The translations under genes and the position numbers were made by a program. From positions 1 through 48,227 of the forward strand of contig PXCI01000001.1 in NCBI GenBank assembly GCA_003566675.1: DNA of 48,227 nt, read 5' to 3'. The notes beneath the pieces are model-generated. The model worked only from the letters and a program-made list of their open reading frames with translations, was not told the DNA's origin and ran no database searches. Each line of letters starts with the position of its first letter. Within the stretch, counting starts at the first letter, position 1. Shown in pieces: positions 8,565 through 15,016 of the stretch. The DNA comes from Clostridia bacterium. GTDB taxonomy: Bacteria > Bacillota > Sulfobacillia > SLMV01.

Positions 8565-9260
8565 CTAGCGCCGACGCCCCTGCAGTGTGAACAGGTAGAT
8601 GAACTGCATCAGGGCCATCAGGGCCGCGGCCAGGTAGGTCAGCGCCGCAGCATTTAGAACCTGCCTGACTCCCCCGGCTTCCCGGGACGTGATGTATCCA
8701 CCGTCGATGAGGGCCGCCATGGCCCGGGCTGAGGCGTTGTACTCGACGGGCAATGTGATGATCTGAAAGACCAGGGCAGAGCCGAACAGGATCAGCCCAA
8801 TCGACATCAGCAGCTCGCCCGTCGTTCCGGCAAAGATGAGCCCGATGAAAAACAGGGGGAAAGCCAGGGTCGATCCAAACCGCGAGACCGGGATGATCGC
8901 ATTCCTCATCCCAAGCCAGATATAGCCCGTGGCATGCTGCATGGCATGGCCCGCCTCGTGGGCGGCGATTCCCAGGGCCGCCAGCGTCCGTCCATCGTGA
9001 ACATCCGGGGACAGCCGCACGGTCTGGTCCCGGGGATCGTAGTGGTCGCTCAACGCCCCCCGGCGACTGTACTCAATATTCACACCCCCAAGACCCACCT
9101 CACTGAGCATGGCCCGGGCCACCTCGGCTCCCGAGATCCCCCGGGAAGAGCGGACCCGGGAGAACCGCCGATAGGCTCCCTGTACCCGGGACTGGGCCCA
9201 GGTGGCCAGGATCAGTGCCGGCAGGATGAGGATAAAATAGAGCGGGTCAAAGTAGAACAT
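8565..9260 (-). CDS. Membrane zinc metallopeptidase (YugP / Zn_peptidase_2 family)
   Basis: LSDHYDP, AAHEAGHAMQH, TLPVEYNAS and AAALTY motifs. Confidence 0.93.
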   Translation of the reverse strand: MFYFDPLYFILILPALILATWAQSRVQGAYRRFSRVRSSRGISGAEVARAMLSEVGLGGVNIEYSRRGALSDHYDPRDQTVRLSPDVHDGRTLAALGIAAHEAGHAMQHATGYIWLGMRNAIIPVSRFGSTLAFPLFFIGLIFAGTTGELLMSIGLILFGSALVFQIITLPVEYNASARAMAALIDGGYITSREAGGVRQVLNAAALTYLAAALMALMQFIYLFTLQGRRR

Positions 9261-10068
9261 GATCCACCTCCTCAGGTTCAGCCATGATCCTCTTCAACGT
9301 GGCGGTCAGCTTCTCAACGTCGACATCGGTATCGTGGCACGGCCCGTGGGGCCGCTGGTTAACAACACCGATGACCGCAAAACCCCCTACGTCCCGGATC
9401 CCCTCGGTCAGCTCCCTTTCACAGGCAACGGCAACGATGACCTCCGGGCGCGTCTCCTCGACGATCCGGCGTGCCTGCGTCCCCCCCGTGGAAACATGCA
9501 CCGGCAGGTCAATCCCGTCGGTGGCCTCCAGGATCTTGGCGAGGGGACATCGGCCGCAGCGGCGGCAGCGGTTTACATCCTGGCTGACCTTGTGGATGCA
9601 CTCCGCCAGCTGCATGCACCTTGGGATCAGGACCAGGATCCCTGACGGGTCGACGTTCACGACCGTCCTGCTGGTCAGGGCGTTGGTGACGGCAATGAAA
9701 GAGCCCTGGACATCATCCCTCGACCGGCCCAGGATCCTTCCGGCCAAGACCGCCAGGGGCAGTATCAACAATAGGACGCTCTGCATAACTCTCCTGAACG
9801 AGGCCGAGACCCCCCGCTCGGTCCAGATCAGCCAGACAATCGATGTCAGGCCGAGACCGATCAGGAGAATGAACAGGGCGATCCCCAGCTCGAGGATCAG
9901 GACCAGGCCGGCCTTGACCTCGGTCGTGTGTCGAACAAGAACGTATAGTAGGGCACTTCCCATACCAACCACGAGAATCGCTGCTGCAAGGGCCATCTTT
10001 ACGAACAGCCGCTTGGGACGCCCTGTCAGGCTCATGGACCGGGTGCTACCCGTGACCGTTTCACCCAT
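9247..10068 (-). CDS. DUF116 domain protein (N-terminal TM helices, Cys-rich C-terminus)
   Basis: PRCMQxxxC...CRRCGRC...TGGTQAR...VACEREL...GPCHDT; GAGGAGG RBS before ATG 10068. Confidence 0.85.
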   Translation of the reverse strand: MGETVTGSTRSMSLTGRPKRLFVKMALAAAILVVGMGSALLYVLVRHTTEVKAGLVLILELGIALFILLIGLGLTSIVWLIWTERGVSASFRRVMQSVLLLILPLAVLAGRILGRSRDDVQGSFIAVTNALTSRTVVNVDPSGILVLIPRCMQLAECIHKVSQDVNRCRRCGRCPLAKILEATDGIDLPVHVSTGGTQARRIVEETRPEVIVAVACERELTEGIRDVGGFAVIGVVNQRPHGPCHDTDVDVEKLTATLKRIMAEPEEVDHVLL

Positions 10069-11506
10069 GGACTTCCTCCTCAGCACCCCCCAGAATCTCC
10101 CCCGGTTTCATATCATATCCGTTGACAAACTCCTCGACCGAAATCGGCCGTCGACCCGGCACCTGGATCCGACGGAGGACACAGGTGCCATCCCCCGTGC
10201 CCACCTGGATGCCCTCAGGCGCGACGGTCAGAACCTCTCCTGCGCCCCCGGATCCATCATCCTCTGAGGCCAGCAGGATCTTGATCCGATCCCCTCTCCA
10301 CCTCGTCCAGGCTCCCGGCCTGGGTGCAAAGGCCCGGACCTTGTTGACAACGTCCCGGGCGGTCCGGCTCCAGTCAATCTCGGTCTCACCTCGGCTGATC
10401 TTCGGGGCGTAGGTGGCACGATCATCGTCCTGCGGCTCAGATTCGATCCCTCCCCGGGCCAGGGCATCCATGACCTCCAGGACCATATCTCCTCCCAGGG
10501 CGGCCAGGCGATCGTGTAGTGTTCCGGCATCGTCCTCATCGAGCACGGGCAGGGCGCACTGCAGCAGAATGGGGCCGCTGTCCATCCCCTCGTCCATGCT
10601 GATAATAGTGACGCCGGTCTCGGTCTCTCCAGCCATCAGCAGGCGCTGGATCGGAGCGGCACCGCGGTAGCGGGGCAAAAGGGACGCGTGAACGTTGATG
10701 CAGCCCAACCTCGGCAGGTCGAGGGTCTCTCTATTAAGAATCTGCCCGTAAGCAGCGGTGACGATCAGGTCCGGCTCCAGCCAGGTCAGATGACGCACGA
10801 GATCGGCATCATCGGCAGAGGATTCGGGCTGCAGCACGGGTACCCTCGACTCCAACGCCAGCATCTTCACCGGGGACGGCGCAGGCCTCTGCCCCCTTCC
10901 CCGGGGGCGGTCCGGCGCAGTCACAGCACCGACAACGGCACAGTTCGCGTCAACCATCTCATGAAGCACTATGGCGGCAAATTCGGGGGTCCCCATGAAC
11001 ACGACCCGGAGACGGGTCCTGGGATCCATCCGCACGATTTCCTCGCTCCGATCGATGAACAGGTTTCCGTCCAGGTGATCGATCTCGTGACACAGAACTC
11101 GCGCGGCCCACCCCTCAACATTGACAAAGACCCGTTCTCCCTCGCGGTCCTGGGCGGTCACGGTCACCTCGATGGGACGGGCGACCTCACCCATGTAGCC
11201 GGGAACACTCAGGCACCCCTCGAAACCCTTCTCCGACCCCGCCCGGTGCGTGATCTCCGGGTTCACCAATTCCATCAGGCCCTCTCCATAGTCGACGACC
11301 ACGATTCTCTGGGGCACGCCCACCTGCACCGCGGCCAGGCCGACTCCCCTCTGGTGATACATGGTGGTAGCCATCTTGTCTAACAGCTTCCCGAGACTGC
11401 GGTTGAAGCGGGTGACCGGCTGGGACTCTCCCTCGAGAACCGGGTCCCCGACCGTCACGACCTTCATCCGCTTGCTTGGTGGTGATACCTGGCCCGTAAC
11501 CTGCAT
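10061..11506 (-). CDS. fmt: Fused peptide deformylase (N-terminal) + methionyl-tRNA formyltransferase (C-terminal)
   Basis: PDF motifs GVGLAAVQVG, EGCLS and HEIDHLDG run in frame (…IDRSEEIVRMDPRTRLRVVFMGTPEFA…) into Fmt motifs FMGTPEFA, NVHASLLPRYRGAAP and MDEGMDSG. Confidence 0.93.
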   Translation of the reverse strand: MQVTGQVSPPSKRMKVVTVGDPVLEGESQPVTRFNRSLGKLLDKMATTMYHQRGVGLAAVQVGVPQRIVVVDYGEGLMELVNPEITHRAGSEKGFEGCLSVPGYMGEVARPIEVTVTAQDREGERVFVNVEGWAARVLCHEIDHLDGNLFIDRSEEIVRMDPRTRLRVVFMGTPEFAAIVLHEMVDANCAVVGAVTAPDRPRGRGQRPAPSPVKMLALESRVPVLQPESSADDADLVRHLTWLEPDLIVTAAYGQILNRETLDLPRLGCINVHASLLPRYRGAAPIQRLLMAGETETGVTIISMDEGMDSGPILLQCALPVLDEDDAGTLHDRLAALGGDMVLEVMDALARGGIESEPQDDDRATYAPKISRGETEIDWSRTARDVVNKVRAFAPRPGAWTRWRGDRIKILLASEDDGSGGAGEVLTVAPEGIQVGTGDGTCVLRRIQVPGRRPISVEEFVNGYDMKPGEILGGAEEEVHG

Positions 11507-11544
11507 CTTCTCACATCACCCTCACAACCTTCTACTGGACAGGA

Positions 11545-13806
11545 TCACAGCATCTGCGCCGGGTTCACATCGACAATGATGCGGGGATCCTCCCGCCCCA
11601 TACGCATATTGTGCATCACTTCCCTGAGCCCATCAAGGGAGCGACTCAGATCCGGCGTCTTGAGCAGCAGGTGCCAGCGGTACTGGCCCCGCAATCGATC
11701 AAGGGGTGCGGGTGCGGGCCCCATGAACCGGACCTGCCCCTCCGGCTGAACACTGCCCTGCAGGCGGCGACGCACCTCCTGGGCCCACATCTCGACCATG
11801 GGTTCCGTCTCCCCCGACAGGACCAGGCGGACCAGGTCGACAAAGGGAGGATACTGGGCCCGCTGCCGATCGGCCAGCTCCCGGGCGTAAAAGCCCTCAA
11901 GATCTCCCTCCGCAGCGCAGGTGATCGCCGGGTGGTCGGGGCTGGTGGTCTGTATAATCACCTGGCCCGGCCTCCGTCCCCTGCCCGCCCTCCCCGCAAC
12001 CTGGGTCAGAATCTGAAAGGTCCGCTCCGAGCTGCGAAAATCGGGAAAATGAAGGGCGGTGTCAGCATCGACAACGCCGACCAGGGTCACGGCCCTGATA
12101 TCCCAACCCTTGGCGATCATCTGCGTCCCAACGAGAATGTCCAGGTCTCCCCGGGAGAACTGTTCATAGATCTGGCTCCTGGCATCCTTGCGCCGGGCCG
12201 TGTCCGTATCCAGGCGCGCGATCCGGGCGCCTGGGAAGGCCGACCTTGCAGCCGCCTCCACCTTCTGGGTGCCAACTCCCCGGCGGACCACCCGCCCCCT
12301 GCATTCGGGACAGACCCGCGGCACCTCCATCCGGTCGTTGCAGTAGTGGCAGCGCAGTGTCCCGCCATCCCGGTGATAGGTCATCGTCACATTGCAGTCG
12401 CTGCACTTGAAAGTGTGCCCACAGTCGGTACAAACGAGAAAGGAAGAATAACCCCGCTGATTCAAAAATAAAATCGACTGCTCTCCCCGGTCCAGTCTCA
12501 TCTCCAGGGCCTCGTGAAGGGGCCGACTGAAGATACTGTGATGCCCCTGCTTCCATTCCTGGCGCATGTCAACCACGTCAACTGCGGGCATCGGCCGGGC
12601 ATCGATGCGCTCCGGCAGCTGCAGCATCCCGCACGACCCCGCCTCGGTTGCGTAATAGGACTCCAGGCACGGCGTGGCAGAACCCAGGATCACCGTCGCG
12701 CCGGCCATGTCCGCCCGCTTCAGGGCGACATCCCTGGCGTGGTAGCGGGGAGCCGTCTCCTGCTTGTAGGTGCTCTCGTGCTCCTCATCAACGATGATGG
12801 CCCCCAGGTCCGCGATGGGAGCGAAGACCGCTGACCTGGGGCCCAGGGCAACCCGGGCCTCCCCGGAAAACAACCTGTGCCATTCGCCGGCCCGCTCTCC
12901 CCCGGAGAGGGCGCTGTGCAGGACGGCCACCCCATCCCCAAGGCGACCCTTGACCCGGGCGACCATCTGGGGCGTCAGGGAGATCTCCGGCACCATCAGG
13001 ATCGCTCCGCGGCCCCGGGCCAATACCCTTTCGATCACGCGAAGGTAGATCTCGGTCTTGCCGCTGCTGGTGACCCCATACAGCAGAAAGCTTCCCCCAT
13101 CGCCCGCGACGGCCGGGAGGAGTTTCTCCAGGGCTCTGGACTGATCCGAGGTCAGGGAATCGGGGGCGTCATGGCGGTACCTCTGATCGTAGGGACGGGC
13201 TCCGTCGCGAACATCGACCCAACGCAGAAAACCCCGGTTCACCAGGGCATCCACCGTGGACGTGCTCACCCCCGCAAGCTGGGCGAGGCGGGTTCGCTGC
13301 ACGGGCTGTTTCAGATGCGCGGCCTCCATCAACGCCGCAGCCTGCTTTTTGGCCTGGGCCAGCTCCTTGAGGGCCACACGGAGATCCTCAACGGCCAATG
13401 TGAGCCGGCGAACCGTCGGGGGGCCGGTGCGGTCGCGAAAACCGGGCGGCAACATGGACCGCAGCACCTGTACCGGGCTACACAGGTATTCAGACGCCAC
13501 CCATTCCGCCAGTTCGAGATCATCCTCTGACAGGTATCTCGCGTCGGAGACGAGATCGCGGATTTTACGAACGCGGCCCGAATCCGAATCGGCCTCGGCC
13601 CTGAGGTCAACCACAAACCCCCGCACGACCCGCGGCCCGAAGGGGACCCTCACCATGTGGCCCCTCTGCAGTCGGCCCCGCAGGGCAGCGGGAATCTCAT
13701 AGTCAAAAACCTGGGATCGGGAGACCACCTCATCACCGCCCAGGACCGCATCCACAATAATGCTGGCGAATTTTATCTCGGACGTTCCGTCATCTGCATC
13801 CCTCAC
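11545..13806 (-). CDS. priA: Primosomal protein N' (start uncertain, 13806-13845)
   Basis: GVTSSGKT, DEEH, four CxxC pairs and QVAGRAGR. Confidence 0.96.
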   Translation of the reverse strand: MRDADDGTSEIKFASIIVDAVLGGDEVVSRSQVFDYEIPAALRGRLQRGHMVRVPFGPRVVRGFVVDLRAEADSDSGRVRKIRDLVSDARYLSEDDLELAEWVASEYLCSPVQVLRSMLPPGFRDRTGPPTVRRLTLAVEDLRVALKELAQAKKQAAALMEAAHLKQPVQRTRLAQLAGVSTSTVDALVNRGFLRWVDVRDGARPYDQRYRHDAPDSLTSDQSRALEKLLPAVAGDGGSFLLYGVTSSGKTEIYLRVIERVLARGRGAILMVPEISLTPQMVARVKGRLGDGVAVLHSALSGGERAGEWHRLFSGEARVALGPRSAVFAPIADLGAIIVDEEHESTYKQETAPRYHARDVALKRADMAGATVILGSATPCLESYYATEAGSCGMLQLPERIDARPMPAVDVVDMRQEWKQGHHSIFSRPLHEALEMRLDRGEQSILFLNQRGYSSFLVCTDCGHTFKCSDCNVTMTYHRDGGTLRCHYCNDRMEVPRVCPECRGRVVRRGVGTQKVEAAARSAFPGARIARLDTDTARRKDARSQIYEQFSRGDLDILVGTQMIAKGWDIRAVTLVGVVDADTALHFPDFRSSERTFQILTQVAGRAGRGRRPGQVIIQTTSPDHPAITCAAEGDLEGFYARELADRQRAQYPPFVDLVRLVLSGETEPMVEMWAQEVRRRLQGSVQPEGQVRFMGPAPAPLDRLRGQYRWHLLLKTPDLSRSLDGLREVMHNMRMGREDPRIIVDVNPAQML

Positions 13807-15016
13807 CGGTCTTGTGCACCACCCTCTGGACGATGAGACGAGCAAGGGATCGCTTGTGCATCATGGGCAACGACTCCGTGCCACTGCGATCCATGAGCAC
13901 CACGCGGTTCAGATCCGACCCGAATCCTCCGCGCTCCCCTCCAATCCTATTCAGGGCGATCATGTCCATGCCCTTGCGGATGAGTTTGTCCTGCGCCTTG
14001 CCGCAGGCCTCCTCCTCGGACCCCGTCTCCGCGGCGAAACCCAGGATAAAGGGCTCCTCCCGCTCCTGGCTCAGGGTCGAGATGATGTCGGGTGTAAATG
14101 TGAGGGGAGGCAAACCCTCCCCGGTCTTTTTAATCTTGTCGTTGCAGTAGTGGGCCGGCCGGTACTCCGACACCGCCGCCGACATCAGCAAGATGTCGAT
14201 CTCCGGCCATAACTTTAGGCATCTGTCCAGCATTTCCTCGGTGGAGACCACCGAATGACGGCGAACACCCCGGGGACATGGCAGGTTCACAGGTCCAGAG
14301 ACCAGGTCCACGGCGGCTCCCCTCTCCCGGGCAGCCCGTGCCAGGGCATAGCCCATCTTCCCGCTGGACGGATTGGATAAGAAGCGGGCCGGATCAAAGT
14401 ACTCCCTCGTGGGACCGGCGGTCACCAGGACCCTCCTGCCTGCAAGGGCGGTGTCGGCGTATGCCAGGGAAGCGACCTCCTCCTCGAGGAGCTCGGGAGA
14501 GGGCAATCTTCCCCTACCCTCAGCACCGGATGCCAGGCGCCCGACGTCGGGTTCCACCAGCACAAAGCCGAACGCCTCCAACTGGCGACGGTTTCTCTGG
14601 GTCGCGGGATTTTCCCACATCCTGTGGTTCATGGCCGGGGCCATGAGCTTCGGGCCGTCAAAGGCCACGATCAGGGTGCTCAGAAAGTCATCGGCAATGC
14701 CGGCCGCAGCCTTGGCCATGATGTTAGCCGTGGCCGGTATGACGACGAGGATGTCGCATCGCTCTGCCAGTTCGACGTGCTCAACGTTCCAACGTTTCGG
14801 CTCATCAAACAGATCCAGGTGAACCGGGTTGGCCGAGATGGTCCTGAAGGTCAAAGGTGTGACCAACCGGGTGGCGGCCTCCGTCATGACGACGTGGACC
14901 TCGGCCCCCCTCTTTCGGAGCCGGCTGACAACATCCACAGCCTTGTATGCCGCGATTCCGCCGGTCACGCCGAAGAGAATCCTCTTGCCACGAAGATCTC
15001 CCAGCTGTTCACTCAC
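13790..15016 (-). CDS. coaBC: Bifunctional phosphopantothenoylcysteine decarboxylase/synthase
   Basis: GVTGGIAAYK, PATAN, APAMN and TAGPTRE...SNPSSGKMG; GGAGG RBS before GTG 15016. Confidence 0.97.
   Translation of the reverse strand: MSEQLGDLRGKRILFGVTGGIAAYKAVDVVSRLRKRGAEVHVVMTEAATRLVTPLTFRTISANPVHLDLFDEPKRWNVEHVELAERCDILVVIPATANIMAKAAAGIADDFLSTLIVAFDGPKLMAPAMNHRMWENPATQRNRRQLEAFGFVLVEPDVGRLASGAEGRGRLPSPELLEEEVASLAYADTALAGRRVLVTAGPTREYFDPARFLSNPSSGKMGYALARAARERGAAVDLVSGPVNLPCPRGVRRHSVVSTEEMLDRCLKLWPEIDILLMSAAVSEYRPAHYCNDKIKKTGEGLPPLTFTPDIISTLSQEREEPFILGFAAETGSEEEACGKAQDKLIRKGMDMIALNRIGGERGGFGSDLNRVVLMDRSGTESLPMMHKRSLARLIVQRVVHKTGEGCR

What the first reader, a model, noticed from the sequence alone, without database searches (positions are those of the whole stretch)
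10061..11506. Peptide deformylase and Met-tRNA formyltransferase fused in one polypeptide
Seen: a continuous 481-aa frame with all three PDF motifs, a short linker (RSEEIVRMDPRTRL) and a complete Fmt. Fmt's usual M-R-I-V-F start has L in place of M and there is no obvious internal RBS. Known: def and fmt are normally separate adjacent genes with opposing activities (adding the formyl group to initiator tRNA, removing it from nascent chains), and E. coli-type PDF docks on the ribosome through its C-terminal helix, which is where the fusion sits. Inference: a writer-eraser fusion that fixes stoichiometry and might tether Fmt near ribosomes. I cannot tell from here how widespread such fusions are.
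Basis: partly seen in the sequence, partly recalled or inferred. Interest (0 to 1): 0.75.

Follow-up and report, generated by a model that had tools for sequence, protein, structure and literature searches.

The report
Real, lineage-wide deformylase-formyltransferase gene fusion
One gene here really does encode both the enzyme that adds the formyl group to the starting methionine and the enzyme that later removes it, but this kind of fusion is already published and shown to work in another bacterium, so it is a solid but modest finding.

Summary
Window 10061..11506 on the minus strand is one 481-aa open frame. It holds a complete peptide deformylase (PDF), a short linker and a complete Met-tRNA formyltransferase (Fmt).

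It is not an assembly error:
- All 12 of 12 genomes of the same family, and 16 of 29 other families of the class, keep both domains in one stop-free frame.
- Contigs of two other public runs bridge the junction with substitutions only and no gaps.
- 97 of the best 120 protein clusters carry the same three domains.

The kind is already known. A def-fmt fusion was reported in Exiguobacterium and complemented an E. coli def-fmt deletion (PMC12690207, passages read). This scan has also noted the fusion before on other DNA.

What this case adds:
- The linker spacing is fixed at 22 residues in 47 of 81 fused proteins.
- A family-specific 13-residue N-terminal extension is predicted to clasp the Fmt domain.
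- In 15 of 28 fused genomes the fused PDF is the only PDF found.

The E. coli-style C-terminal ribosome helix is not there, and stand-alone Defs of this class also lack it. I file it as a new member of a known kind, of low to moderate interest.

The parts
10061..11506 (-). Whole def-fmt fusion ORF, 481 aa plus stop codon (10061-10063)
   Evidence: Pfam and NCBIfam
11468..11506 (-). N-terminal 13-residue extension (MQVTGQVSPPSKR), conserved as M-x-[VI]-x-G-x-[IV]-x-P-P-x-x-R in P0001-P0017. Predicted as a strand that docks on the Fmt N-domain.
   Evidence: alignment; AF2 strand at residues 2-4; complex run (residues 1-10 against Fmt 223-226 and 239-243)
11039..11467 (-). Peptide deformylase domain (residues 14-156), closest to type-1 PDFs by sequence. 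Motif I at 11324-11347, motif II at 11207-11221, motif III at 11075-11089.
11012..11038 (-). Linker, residues 157-165 (EIVRMDPRT...). The G147-to-F170 spacing is 22 residues, as in 47 of 81 fused homologues. Holds non-conserved M160 and the GGAG/GAGGA stretch just upstream.
10472..11011 (-). Fmt N-terminal (Rossmann, formyl-transfer) domain, residues 166-345. N271 at 10694-10696, H273 at 10688-10690, D309 at 10580-10582, all invariant in 81 homologues.
10115..10402 (-). Fmt C-terminal domain (PF02911; tRNA binding is a recalled role), residues 369-464
   Evidence: Foldseek to 2fmt TMt 0.92
11545..13845 (-). Upstream neighbour priA (primosomal helicase)
9247..10086 (-). Downstream neighbour, a DUF116 protein whose start overlaps the fusion's 3' end by 26 nt. 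Followed by Zn_peptidase_2, DUF6391, rsmB, rlmN, a PASTA kinase and rpe.

Best explanation
This is a genuine, stably inherited gene fusion that makes one bifunctional polypeptide. It has an N-terminal peptide deformylase closest to type-1 PDFs and a C-terminal methionyl-tRNA(fMet) formyltransferase, and both are catalytically competent. The Fmt half formylates Met-tRNAfMet, and it is the only fmt in the genome. The PDF half removes the formyl group from nascent chains. In this family the two halves are joined by a short linker of fixed length. They are predicted to be held in a fixed arrangement by a family-specific N-terminal strand that adds onto the edge of the Fmt Rossmann sheet. The fusion most likely arose when the stop of def was lost in a tightly packed def-fmt pair. 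One relative has def-TAA-ATG-fmt in one frame. Shown here: the continuous frame, intact motifs, conservation across relatives, and the sole-fmt and often sole-PDF status. Inferred: the activity of both halves (by homology and by the published Exiguobacterium complementation), the clasped architecture (prediction only), and the route of origin.
For: The frame and domains are. Catalytic residues are invariant in 81 fused homologues: PDF G54, G56, A58, Q61, E96, C98, L99, S100 and H140; Fmt N271, H273 and D309. H144 is conserved in at least 90%. The genome holds one true fmt, the fused one; the other two hits score 58 bits against a cut-off of 201.5. In the family, 12 of 12 genomes are fused. In the rest of the class, 16 of 29 are fused, 1 has an in-frame stop and 12 are split. 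In 15 of 28 fused genomes the fused gene is the only PF01327 match, and one of these is a closed 2.82-Mb genome, G034. Wider searches show 97 of the best 120 clusters at 90% identity with all three domains. At least 24 of the best 150 representatives at 50% identity are fused. Contigs from other runs bridge the junction: X2 record 9 spans 10000-11600 with 22 substitutions and 0 gaps, and X3 record 13 spans 10000-11475 with 20 substitutions and 0 gaps. The only indel listed lies at 11514, outside the ORF. By my own codon count, the two junction substitutions (11051, 11060) are synonymous. The linker Met is not conserved, and the spacing is 22 residues in 47 of 81. AF2 gives pLDDT 95.9 and pTM 0.91. 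In the complex run with the two halves as separate chains the score is 0.78 against a best control of 0.01. That mark was reached by 116 of 157 solved complexes and 2 of 215 mismatched pairs. The runs agree in 100% of contacts, and the partner's pLDDT is at least 90. The published precedent is the Exiguobacterium alkaliphilum fusion, which complements E. coli delta def-fmt (PMC12690207, passages read).
Against: No expression or protein data exist for this gene, and no RNA run was available. Activity of either half is not measured here. A GGAG/GAGGA stretch precedes in-frame GTG (V158) and ATG (M160), so some separate Fmt could also be made. The clasp and the rigid packing are model predictions. 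The complex job used my own alignment, so its calibration holds only roughly. The genome is a MAG with 6.3% estimated contamination. The second PDF on contig C61 is therefore assigned to this organism only by analogy with 9 other family genomes that hold the same kind of second PDF. The gene tree of the class is poorly resolved, with 17 of 38 inner forks open, so the number and direction of fusion and fission events is unknown.
Confidence: 0.87

Rival explanations
1. Sequencing or assembly artefact: def and fmt are really separate genes, and a lost base or stop codon in this MAG merged them.
For: The window comes from a fragmented MAG of 365 contigs. One relative (G013) has the two genes separated by a single in-frame TAA, so a single error could mimic a fusion.
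Against: The same uninterrupted frame is found in 12 of 12 family genomes at 50-68% identity, and in 97 of the best 120 protein clusters from independent assemblies. Contigs of two other runs bridge the junction without gaps. Linker length is conserved, and the usual fmt start codon and SD are missing. Only 3 of 28 fused genomes have a junction candidate at or below -7 kcal/mol, against 10 of 13 split genomes.
Confidence: 0.02
2. Fusion plus internal initiation: besides the full-length protein, ribosomes start at GTG (V158) or ATG (M160) behind the GGAG/GAGGA stretch. Free Fmt is then also made and the stoichiometry is not fixed at 1:1.
For: GAGGA lies 4-5 nt before the GTG and about 11 nt before the ATG. 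Pairing energies are -8.0 and -6.0 kcal/mol. The sister genome G001 also has GAGGA and two ATGs there.
Against: Such scores fall within the top 7% and 19% of ordinary internal NTG codons in neighbouring genes. The Met and the SD-like stretch are not conserved outside the genus: most family members have L, V or I and no start codon there. The anti-SD string used was a recalled generic one.
Confidence: 0.1
3. The fused PDF half is a degenerate or regulatory module, and the separate second PDF does the real deformylation.
For: The genome, like 9 of the other 11 family genomes, has a second PDF gene. All four Exiguobacterium reference genomes with the fusion also keep a second PDF (PMC12690207).
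Against: The fused PDF keeps every canonical motif. The second PDF departs from motif II, with WDDCLS in place of EGCLS. In 15 of 28 fused genomes, including a closed genome, the fused PDF is the only PF01327 match. The Exiguobacterium fusion restored growth of an E. coli def-fmt deletion.
Confidence: 0.04

Closest known systems
Def-Fmt fusion of Exiguobacterium (E. alkaliphilum gene tested; Mol Biol Evol 2025, PMC12690207; UniRef name 'Multifunctional fusion protein')
   Same: The domain order is the same, PDF then Formyl_trans_N then Formyl_trans_C, in one ORF of about 460-480 aa. It is 42% identical over 466 aligned positions to P0067. A second PDF is present in the genome. All catalytic motifs are kept.
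   Different: The lineage differs: a Thermaerobacter-related class of Bacillota, not Bacillales. The G147-to-F170 spacing is 22 residues against 14-19 in the six Exiguobacterium clusters. The 13-residue N-terminal extension is absent from Exiguobacterium proteins. In many relatives here the fused PDF is the only PDF. No complementation has been done for this gene. Common origin is not shown.
Canonical separate def and fmt genes of the def-fmt(-rsmB) operon (E. coli, B. subtilis)
   Same: The enzymes, gene order and neighbourhood are the same: priA upstream, with rsmB and rlmN downstream. The Fmt half superposes on solved Fmt structures, with 5uai at TMt 0.94 and 2fmt at 0.92. The PDF half matches solved PDFs, with 1lme at E 2.8e-34 and E. 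coli 1bs4 at 2.5e-25.
   Different: There is no stop codon and no fmt start codon between them. L stands where Fmt's Met would be. The long C-terminal helix of E. coli PDF is replaced by a short linker.
Def-Fmt fusions noted earlier in this scan in Patescibacteria/CPR genomes (e1-835593, e1-1142238, e1-1016523 and others)
   Same: The architecture and the verdict are the same: real, recurrent and already known.
   Different: Those notes ascribe the fusion to a one-base deletion in overlapping genes. Here the nearest intermediate seen is an in-frame def-TAA-ATG-fmt (G013), which points to stop-codon loss. I did not examine their loci.

Membership tests
Peptide deformylase (PF01327 / TIGR00079) | Profile score above the curated cut-offs | tested here: met
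   PF01327 scores 159.7 bits (cut-off 22.8). TIGR00079 scores 132.6 bits (cut-off 103.95)..
Peptide deformylase (PF01327 / TIGR00079) | Motifs I (GxGxAAxQ), II (EGCLS) and III (HExxH) with the metal ligands Cys, His, His. Motifs are as given in PMC12690207 section 6. | tested here: met
   G54-G56-A58-A59-Q61, E96-G97-C98-L99-S100 and H140-E141-x-x-H144. These are invariant or at least 90% conserved in 81 homologues.
Peptide deformylase, E. coli-like type 1B with C-terminal ribosome-docking helix | A long C-terminal alpha-helix after motif III. Its role in ribosome docking is recalled, not from a call. | tested here: not met
   The alignment to E. coli 1bs4 stops at chain residue 147 of 168. 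AF2 gives H150-153, E156-159 and H162-165, and then Fmt strand 1 at 167.
Methionyl-tRNA formyltransferase (TIGR00460 equivalog) | Equivalog score above the cut-off, with both PF00551 and PF02911 domains | tested here: met
   292.4 bits against 201.5. PF00551 at 167-345 and PF02911 at 369-464. Foldseek to 5uai gives TMt 0.94.
Methionyl-tRNA formyltransferase (TIGR00460 equivalog) | Catalytic Asn-His-Asp of formyltransferases. The equivalence to E. coli N108, H110 and D146 is recalled. | tested here: met
   N271, H273 and D309 are invariant in 81 sequences, and the SLLPxYRG motif is present.
Published Def-Fmt fusion (Exiguobacterium type) | PDF and Fmt in one uninterrupted ORF, in that order | tested here: met
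Published Def-Fmt fusion (Exiguobacterium type) | Both activities are functional (complementation of E. coli delta def-fmt) | not testable with these tools
   Shown only for E. alkaliphilum (PMC12690207). Figure S1 was not seen.
Published Def-Fmt fusion (Exiguobacterium type) | Same evolutionary origin of the fusion | tested here: inconclusive
   The linker differs in length and sequence (22 against 14-19 residues). Identity is 42%. No tree with named Bacilli Fmt sequences was built.

The most novel reading that the evidence does not exclude
In this family the fusion is more than a read-through. It may have become a rigid, clasped formyl-cycle enzyme. A family-specific N-terminal strand of the PDF adds onto the Fmt Rossmann sheet, and a linker of fixed length locks the other end. 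In many relatives this protein of about 53 kDa, which lacks the C-terminal docking helix, is the only deformylase. If so, co-translational deformylation in this class would have to use a different way of reaching the ribosome exit, for example through the Fmt half or the clasp, or it would occur off the ribosome.
Probability: 0.25. Interest if true: 0.5.

Novelty: new member of a known kind. Interest (0 to 1): 0.27.

Why it matters
The fusion joins the writer and the eraser of the N-terminal formyl mark in one chain. Truncating mutations in the essential def half then also remove fmt, and loss of fmt is known to make def dispensable (PMC12690207 introduction, on fmt inactivation and actinonin). 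This case shows that the architecture is not a curiosity of one genus. It is fixed across a whole family and is frequent in a class of thermophilic and alkaliphilic Bacillota, often as the only PDF. That gives a natural test bed for two questions: how PDF reaches nascent chains without the E. coli-type helix, and whether Def and Fmt interact physically. It does not define a new kind of system.

Tried and rejected
- Expression evidence: no RNA holder was listed for the stretch, so nothing can be said about expression.
- Raw reads: all four runs laid were Logan contigs, so read-level depth across the junction could not be examined. Run X1 has no cover at 11026-11133, which is uninformative.
- Internal start: the SD scan used a recalled generic anti-SD string. 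The result was not distinctive, so internal initiation is neither supported nor excluded.
- Class-level history: the concatenated PDF+Fmt tree of 41 genomes (quick mode) left 17 of 38 inner forks open. It needs 10 changes of state, but starred branches force only 2. I therefore do not claim a number or direction of fusion events. G017 was a long branch represented by Fmt only.
- Regex motif scan: it missed several PDFs. It was replaced by phmmer domain mapping.
- Foldseek against PDB: it returned only Fmt-like chains (TMq at most 0.61) in the rows shown. No fused structure was listed, and PDF-only hits were not among the rows shown.
- Literature: three searches found only PMC12690207 describing the fusion. 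The third search found 0 papers. Supplementary Figure S1 and the tables of that paper were not opened.
- Not done: a tree with named Bacilli Fmt sequences to test an independent origin of the Exiguobacterium fusion; a phylum-wide census; any analysis of model coordinates (none are available to scripts).
Full report
**1. The observation**

The window holds one open reading frame on the minus strand, 10061..11506. It is 481 aa long, starts with ATG and has no internal stop.

Pfam finds three domains:
- Pep_deformylase at residues 15-156 (E 5.4e-47).
- Formyl_trans_N at residues 167-345 (E 5.3e-42).
- Formyl_trans_C at residues 369-464 (E 3e-24).

NCBIfam's equivalog models pass their curated cut-offs. 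These are TIGR00460 fmt at 292.4 bits against 201.5, and TIGR00079 at 132.6 bits against 103.95. The linker RSEEIVRMDPRTRL and the L-R-V-V-F in place of the usual M-R-I-V-F are as described.

The neighbourhood is the usual Bacillota one, all on the minus strand. The order is coaBC, priA, def-fmt, DUF116, Zn_peptidase_2, DUF6391, rsmB, rlmN, a PASTA Ser/Thr kinase and rpe.

**2. Is it real?**

Three lines of evidence say yes.

*Relatives.* I searched 41 genomes, the window's own plus 40 relatives. I then mapped both domains onto stop-to-stop frames of the fetched loci.
- All 12 genomes of the window's family have both domains in one stop-free frame. G011 is cut by its contig end.
- Of the 29 other genomes of the class, one per family, 16 are fused. 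In one of these, G026, an in-frame TGA interrupts the PDF part.
- One genome, G013, has def-TAA-ATG-fmt in a single frame.
- The remaining 12 are split. Nine of these have adjacent genes in different frames, G017 has def elsewhere, and G024 and G035 have the two genes on different contigs.

*Independent assemblies.*
- Among the best 120 protein clusters at 90% identity, 97 carry all three Pfam domains, at 95% down to 36% identity to the query. They include a Thermaerobacter marianensis DSM 12885 protein and several Exiguobacterium clusters.
- Among the best 150 representatives at 50% identity, at least 24 are fused. Twenty of the 23 that I scanned carry PF01327 plus PF00551, and four more were already annotated.
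- The other 123 representatives are 268-352 aa long and were not scanned.

*Public runs.* Only Logan contigs were available, not raw reads.
- A 1994-nt contig of run X2 spans 10000-11600 with 22 substitutions and no gap.
- A 1487-nt contig of run X3 spans 10000-11475 with 20 substitutions and no gap.
- The only indel listed lies at 11514, upstream of the ORF.
- By my own codon count, the two substitutions near the junction (11051, 11060) are synonymous.
- The two runs belong to two study codes of the same year and habitat, so they may be one campaign.

**3. Are both halves intact?**

In an alignment of 81 fused proteins the PDF residues G54, G56, A58, Q61, E96, C98, L99, S100 and H140 are invariant. 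E141, D143 and H144 are at least 90% conserved. In the Fmt half, N271, H273 and D309 are invariant.

By sequence the PDF half is closest to type-1 PDFs:
- 1lme at E 2.8e-34.
- E. coli 1bs4 at E 2.5e-25.
- The listed S. aureus chains only at about 1e-15.

The type labels are recalled. The Fmt half of the model superposes on solved Fmt structures, with 5uai at TMt 0.94 and 2fmt at 0.92.

The genome has no other true fmt. The two other hits score 58 bits against a cut-off of 201.5.

**4. The junction**

*Linker length.* The spacing between G147 of HEIDHLDG and F170 of FMGTP is exactly 22 residues in 47 of 81 fused proteins. These share the pattern LF-x-D-[RK]-[AS]-x-x-[VIL]-x-x-[LMV]-P-P-E-x-x-L-R. 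Other groups have spacings of 14-19 residues (Exiguobacterium), 21 residues, or 26-68 residues rich in Gly, Pro or acidic residues. This fits several separate fusions or later remodelling of the linker.

*Internal start.* The Met in the window's linker (M160) is not conserved. The DNA does hold GGAG/GAGGA upstream of an in-frame GTG (V158) and ATG (M160). Pairing to a generic, recalled anti-SD gives -8.0 and -6.0 kcal/mol. Among 368 internal in-frame NTG codons of 12 neighbouring genes, 7% and 19% reach these values. For comparison:
- 10 of 13 split relatives have an fmt start codon with -7 kcal/mol or better.
- Only 3 of 28 fused genes have any such candidate near the junction.

Extra initiation inside the linker therefore cannot be excluded for this genus, but it is not a conserved feature. 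In any case it cannot release a free PDF.

*C-terminal helix.* E. coli PDF aligns only to query residue 155, which is its residue 147 of 168. AF2 predicts two 4-residue helices and a short strand before the first Fmt strand. Stand-alone Defs of the class end in acidic low-complexity tails of 19-77 residues, where the tail is complete; G035's is cut by a contig end.

**5. Predicted architecture**

With the 81-row alignment AF2 gives pLDDT 95.9 and pTM 0.91. Such a high pTM for a three-domain chain suggests a fixed arrangement.

I folded the halves as separate chains, residues 1-155 against 166-475. The complex job scored 0.78, with a best control of 0.01. That mark was reached by 116 of 157 solved complexes and 2 of 215 mismatched pairs. 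The runs agree in 100% of contacts, and the partner's pLDDT is at least 90. My own alignment was used, so these counts hold only roughly.

The interface is made mainly by residues 1-10 of the protein, against Fmt residues 223-226 and 239-243. These N-terminal residues are a 13-residue extension before the usual PDF start. The extension is conserved as M-x-[VI]-x-G-x-[IV]-x-P-P-x-x-R in P0001-P0017, the family-level relatives, and is absent from or different in the other 64 rows.

This is a prediction, not a measurement.

**6. The second PDF**

The genome holds a second PF01327 gene on contig C61. Ten of the 12 family genomes have one; G003 and G007, both of one genus, do not.

I recovered the second PDFs of nine family genomes, the window's own included; my pattern missed G010's. 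I also recovered those of G022 and G036. All nine family copies and G036's have canonical motifs I and III, but DDC[LF]S in place of EGCLS at motif II: WDDCLS in the family, WDDCFS in G036. G022 has DACFS. That departs from the updated motif II given in PMC12690207 (section 6 read).

Outside the family, 13 of 16 fused genomes have the fused gene as their only PF01327 match. One of them is a closed 2.82-Mb genome. The fused PDF is therefore very probably the working housekeeping enzyme.

**7. History**

The family is a strongly supported clade (SH-aLRT 100) and all of its members are fused. Across the class, fused and split states are interspersed. The tree is poorly resolved, however, with 17 of 38 inner forks open. 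It needs 10 changes of state, and well-supported branches force only 2. One well-supported sister pair, G040 fused with G024 split (SH-aLRT 97), shows at least one recent change. G013, with def-TAA-ATG-fmt in one frame, shows how a single substitution could fuse or split the pair.

**8. What is known**

Three full-text searches found one paper that describes this fusion. It is Mol Biol Evol 2025, msaf311 (PMC12690207), of which I read passages and section 6. The paper reports the following:
- def and fmt appear fused in the four Exiguobacterium reference genomes.
- All four genomes also keep a second PDF.
[quoted passage not shown] This is their Figure S1, which I did not see.

UniRef labels such proteins 'Multifunctional fusion protein'. 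Earlier notes of this scan describe the same fusion in other genomes, mostly Patescibacteria, with the same verdict. I had reached the paper before reading those notes.

**9. Verdict**

It belongs to an already described and experimentally supported kind. This case adds a second, deeper lineage in which the fusion is fixed and is often the sole PDF. It also adds a conserved linker and a predicted N-terminal clasp. Interest is low to moderate.

Noticed in passing
G000 contig C61, locus L002:1447-2097 (minus); not in the window: The genome's second PDF has WDDCLS instead of EGCLS at motif II, with canonical motifs I and III. It sits next to an alanine-racemase-like gene. The same WDDCLS variant is in the 8 other family genomes whose second PDF I recovered; G036 has WDDCFS. 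This may be a distinct accessory PDF subfamily.
   Followed up: partly
L019 (G013:C36:12400-15000): In this relative, def and fmt are in the same frame, separated only by TAA followed directly by the fmt ATG. It looks like a one-substitution intermediate between the split and fused states.
   Followed up: partly
L033 (G026:C61:9000-12000): The fused gene of this relative has an in-frame TGA inside the PDF part, which splits the PDF match into two pieces. It is the genome's only PDF locus. It could be an error, a pseudogene or recoding.
   Followed up: no
Loci L020, L022, L032, L034, L036, L038, L039, L045, L047: Stand-alone Defs of the class end in acidic, Glu-rich low-complexity tails (23-77 aa after HExxHxxG in these nine). 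These tails overlap the GAGG-type Shine-Dalgarno of the downstream fmt, so the tail composition may partly be a by-product of the SD.
   Followed up: no
window 10061-10086: The 3' end of the fusion ORF overlaps by 26 nt the GTG start called for the downstream DUF116 gene, which suggests translational coupling or a later true start.
   Followed up: no
P0125 (457 aa) and P0140 (368 aa), representatives: These proteins show two Formyl_trans_N stretches and no PDF domain. They may be Fmt variants with a duplicated or split N-domain.
   Followed up: no
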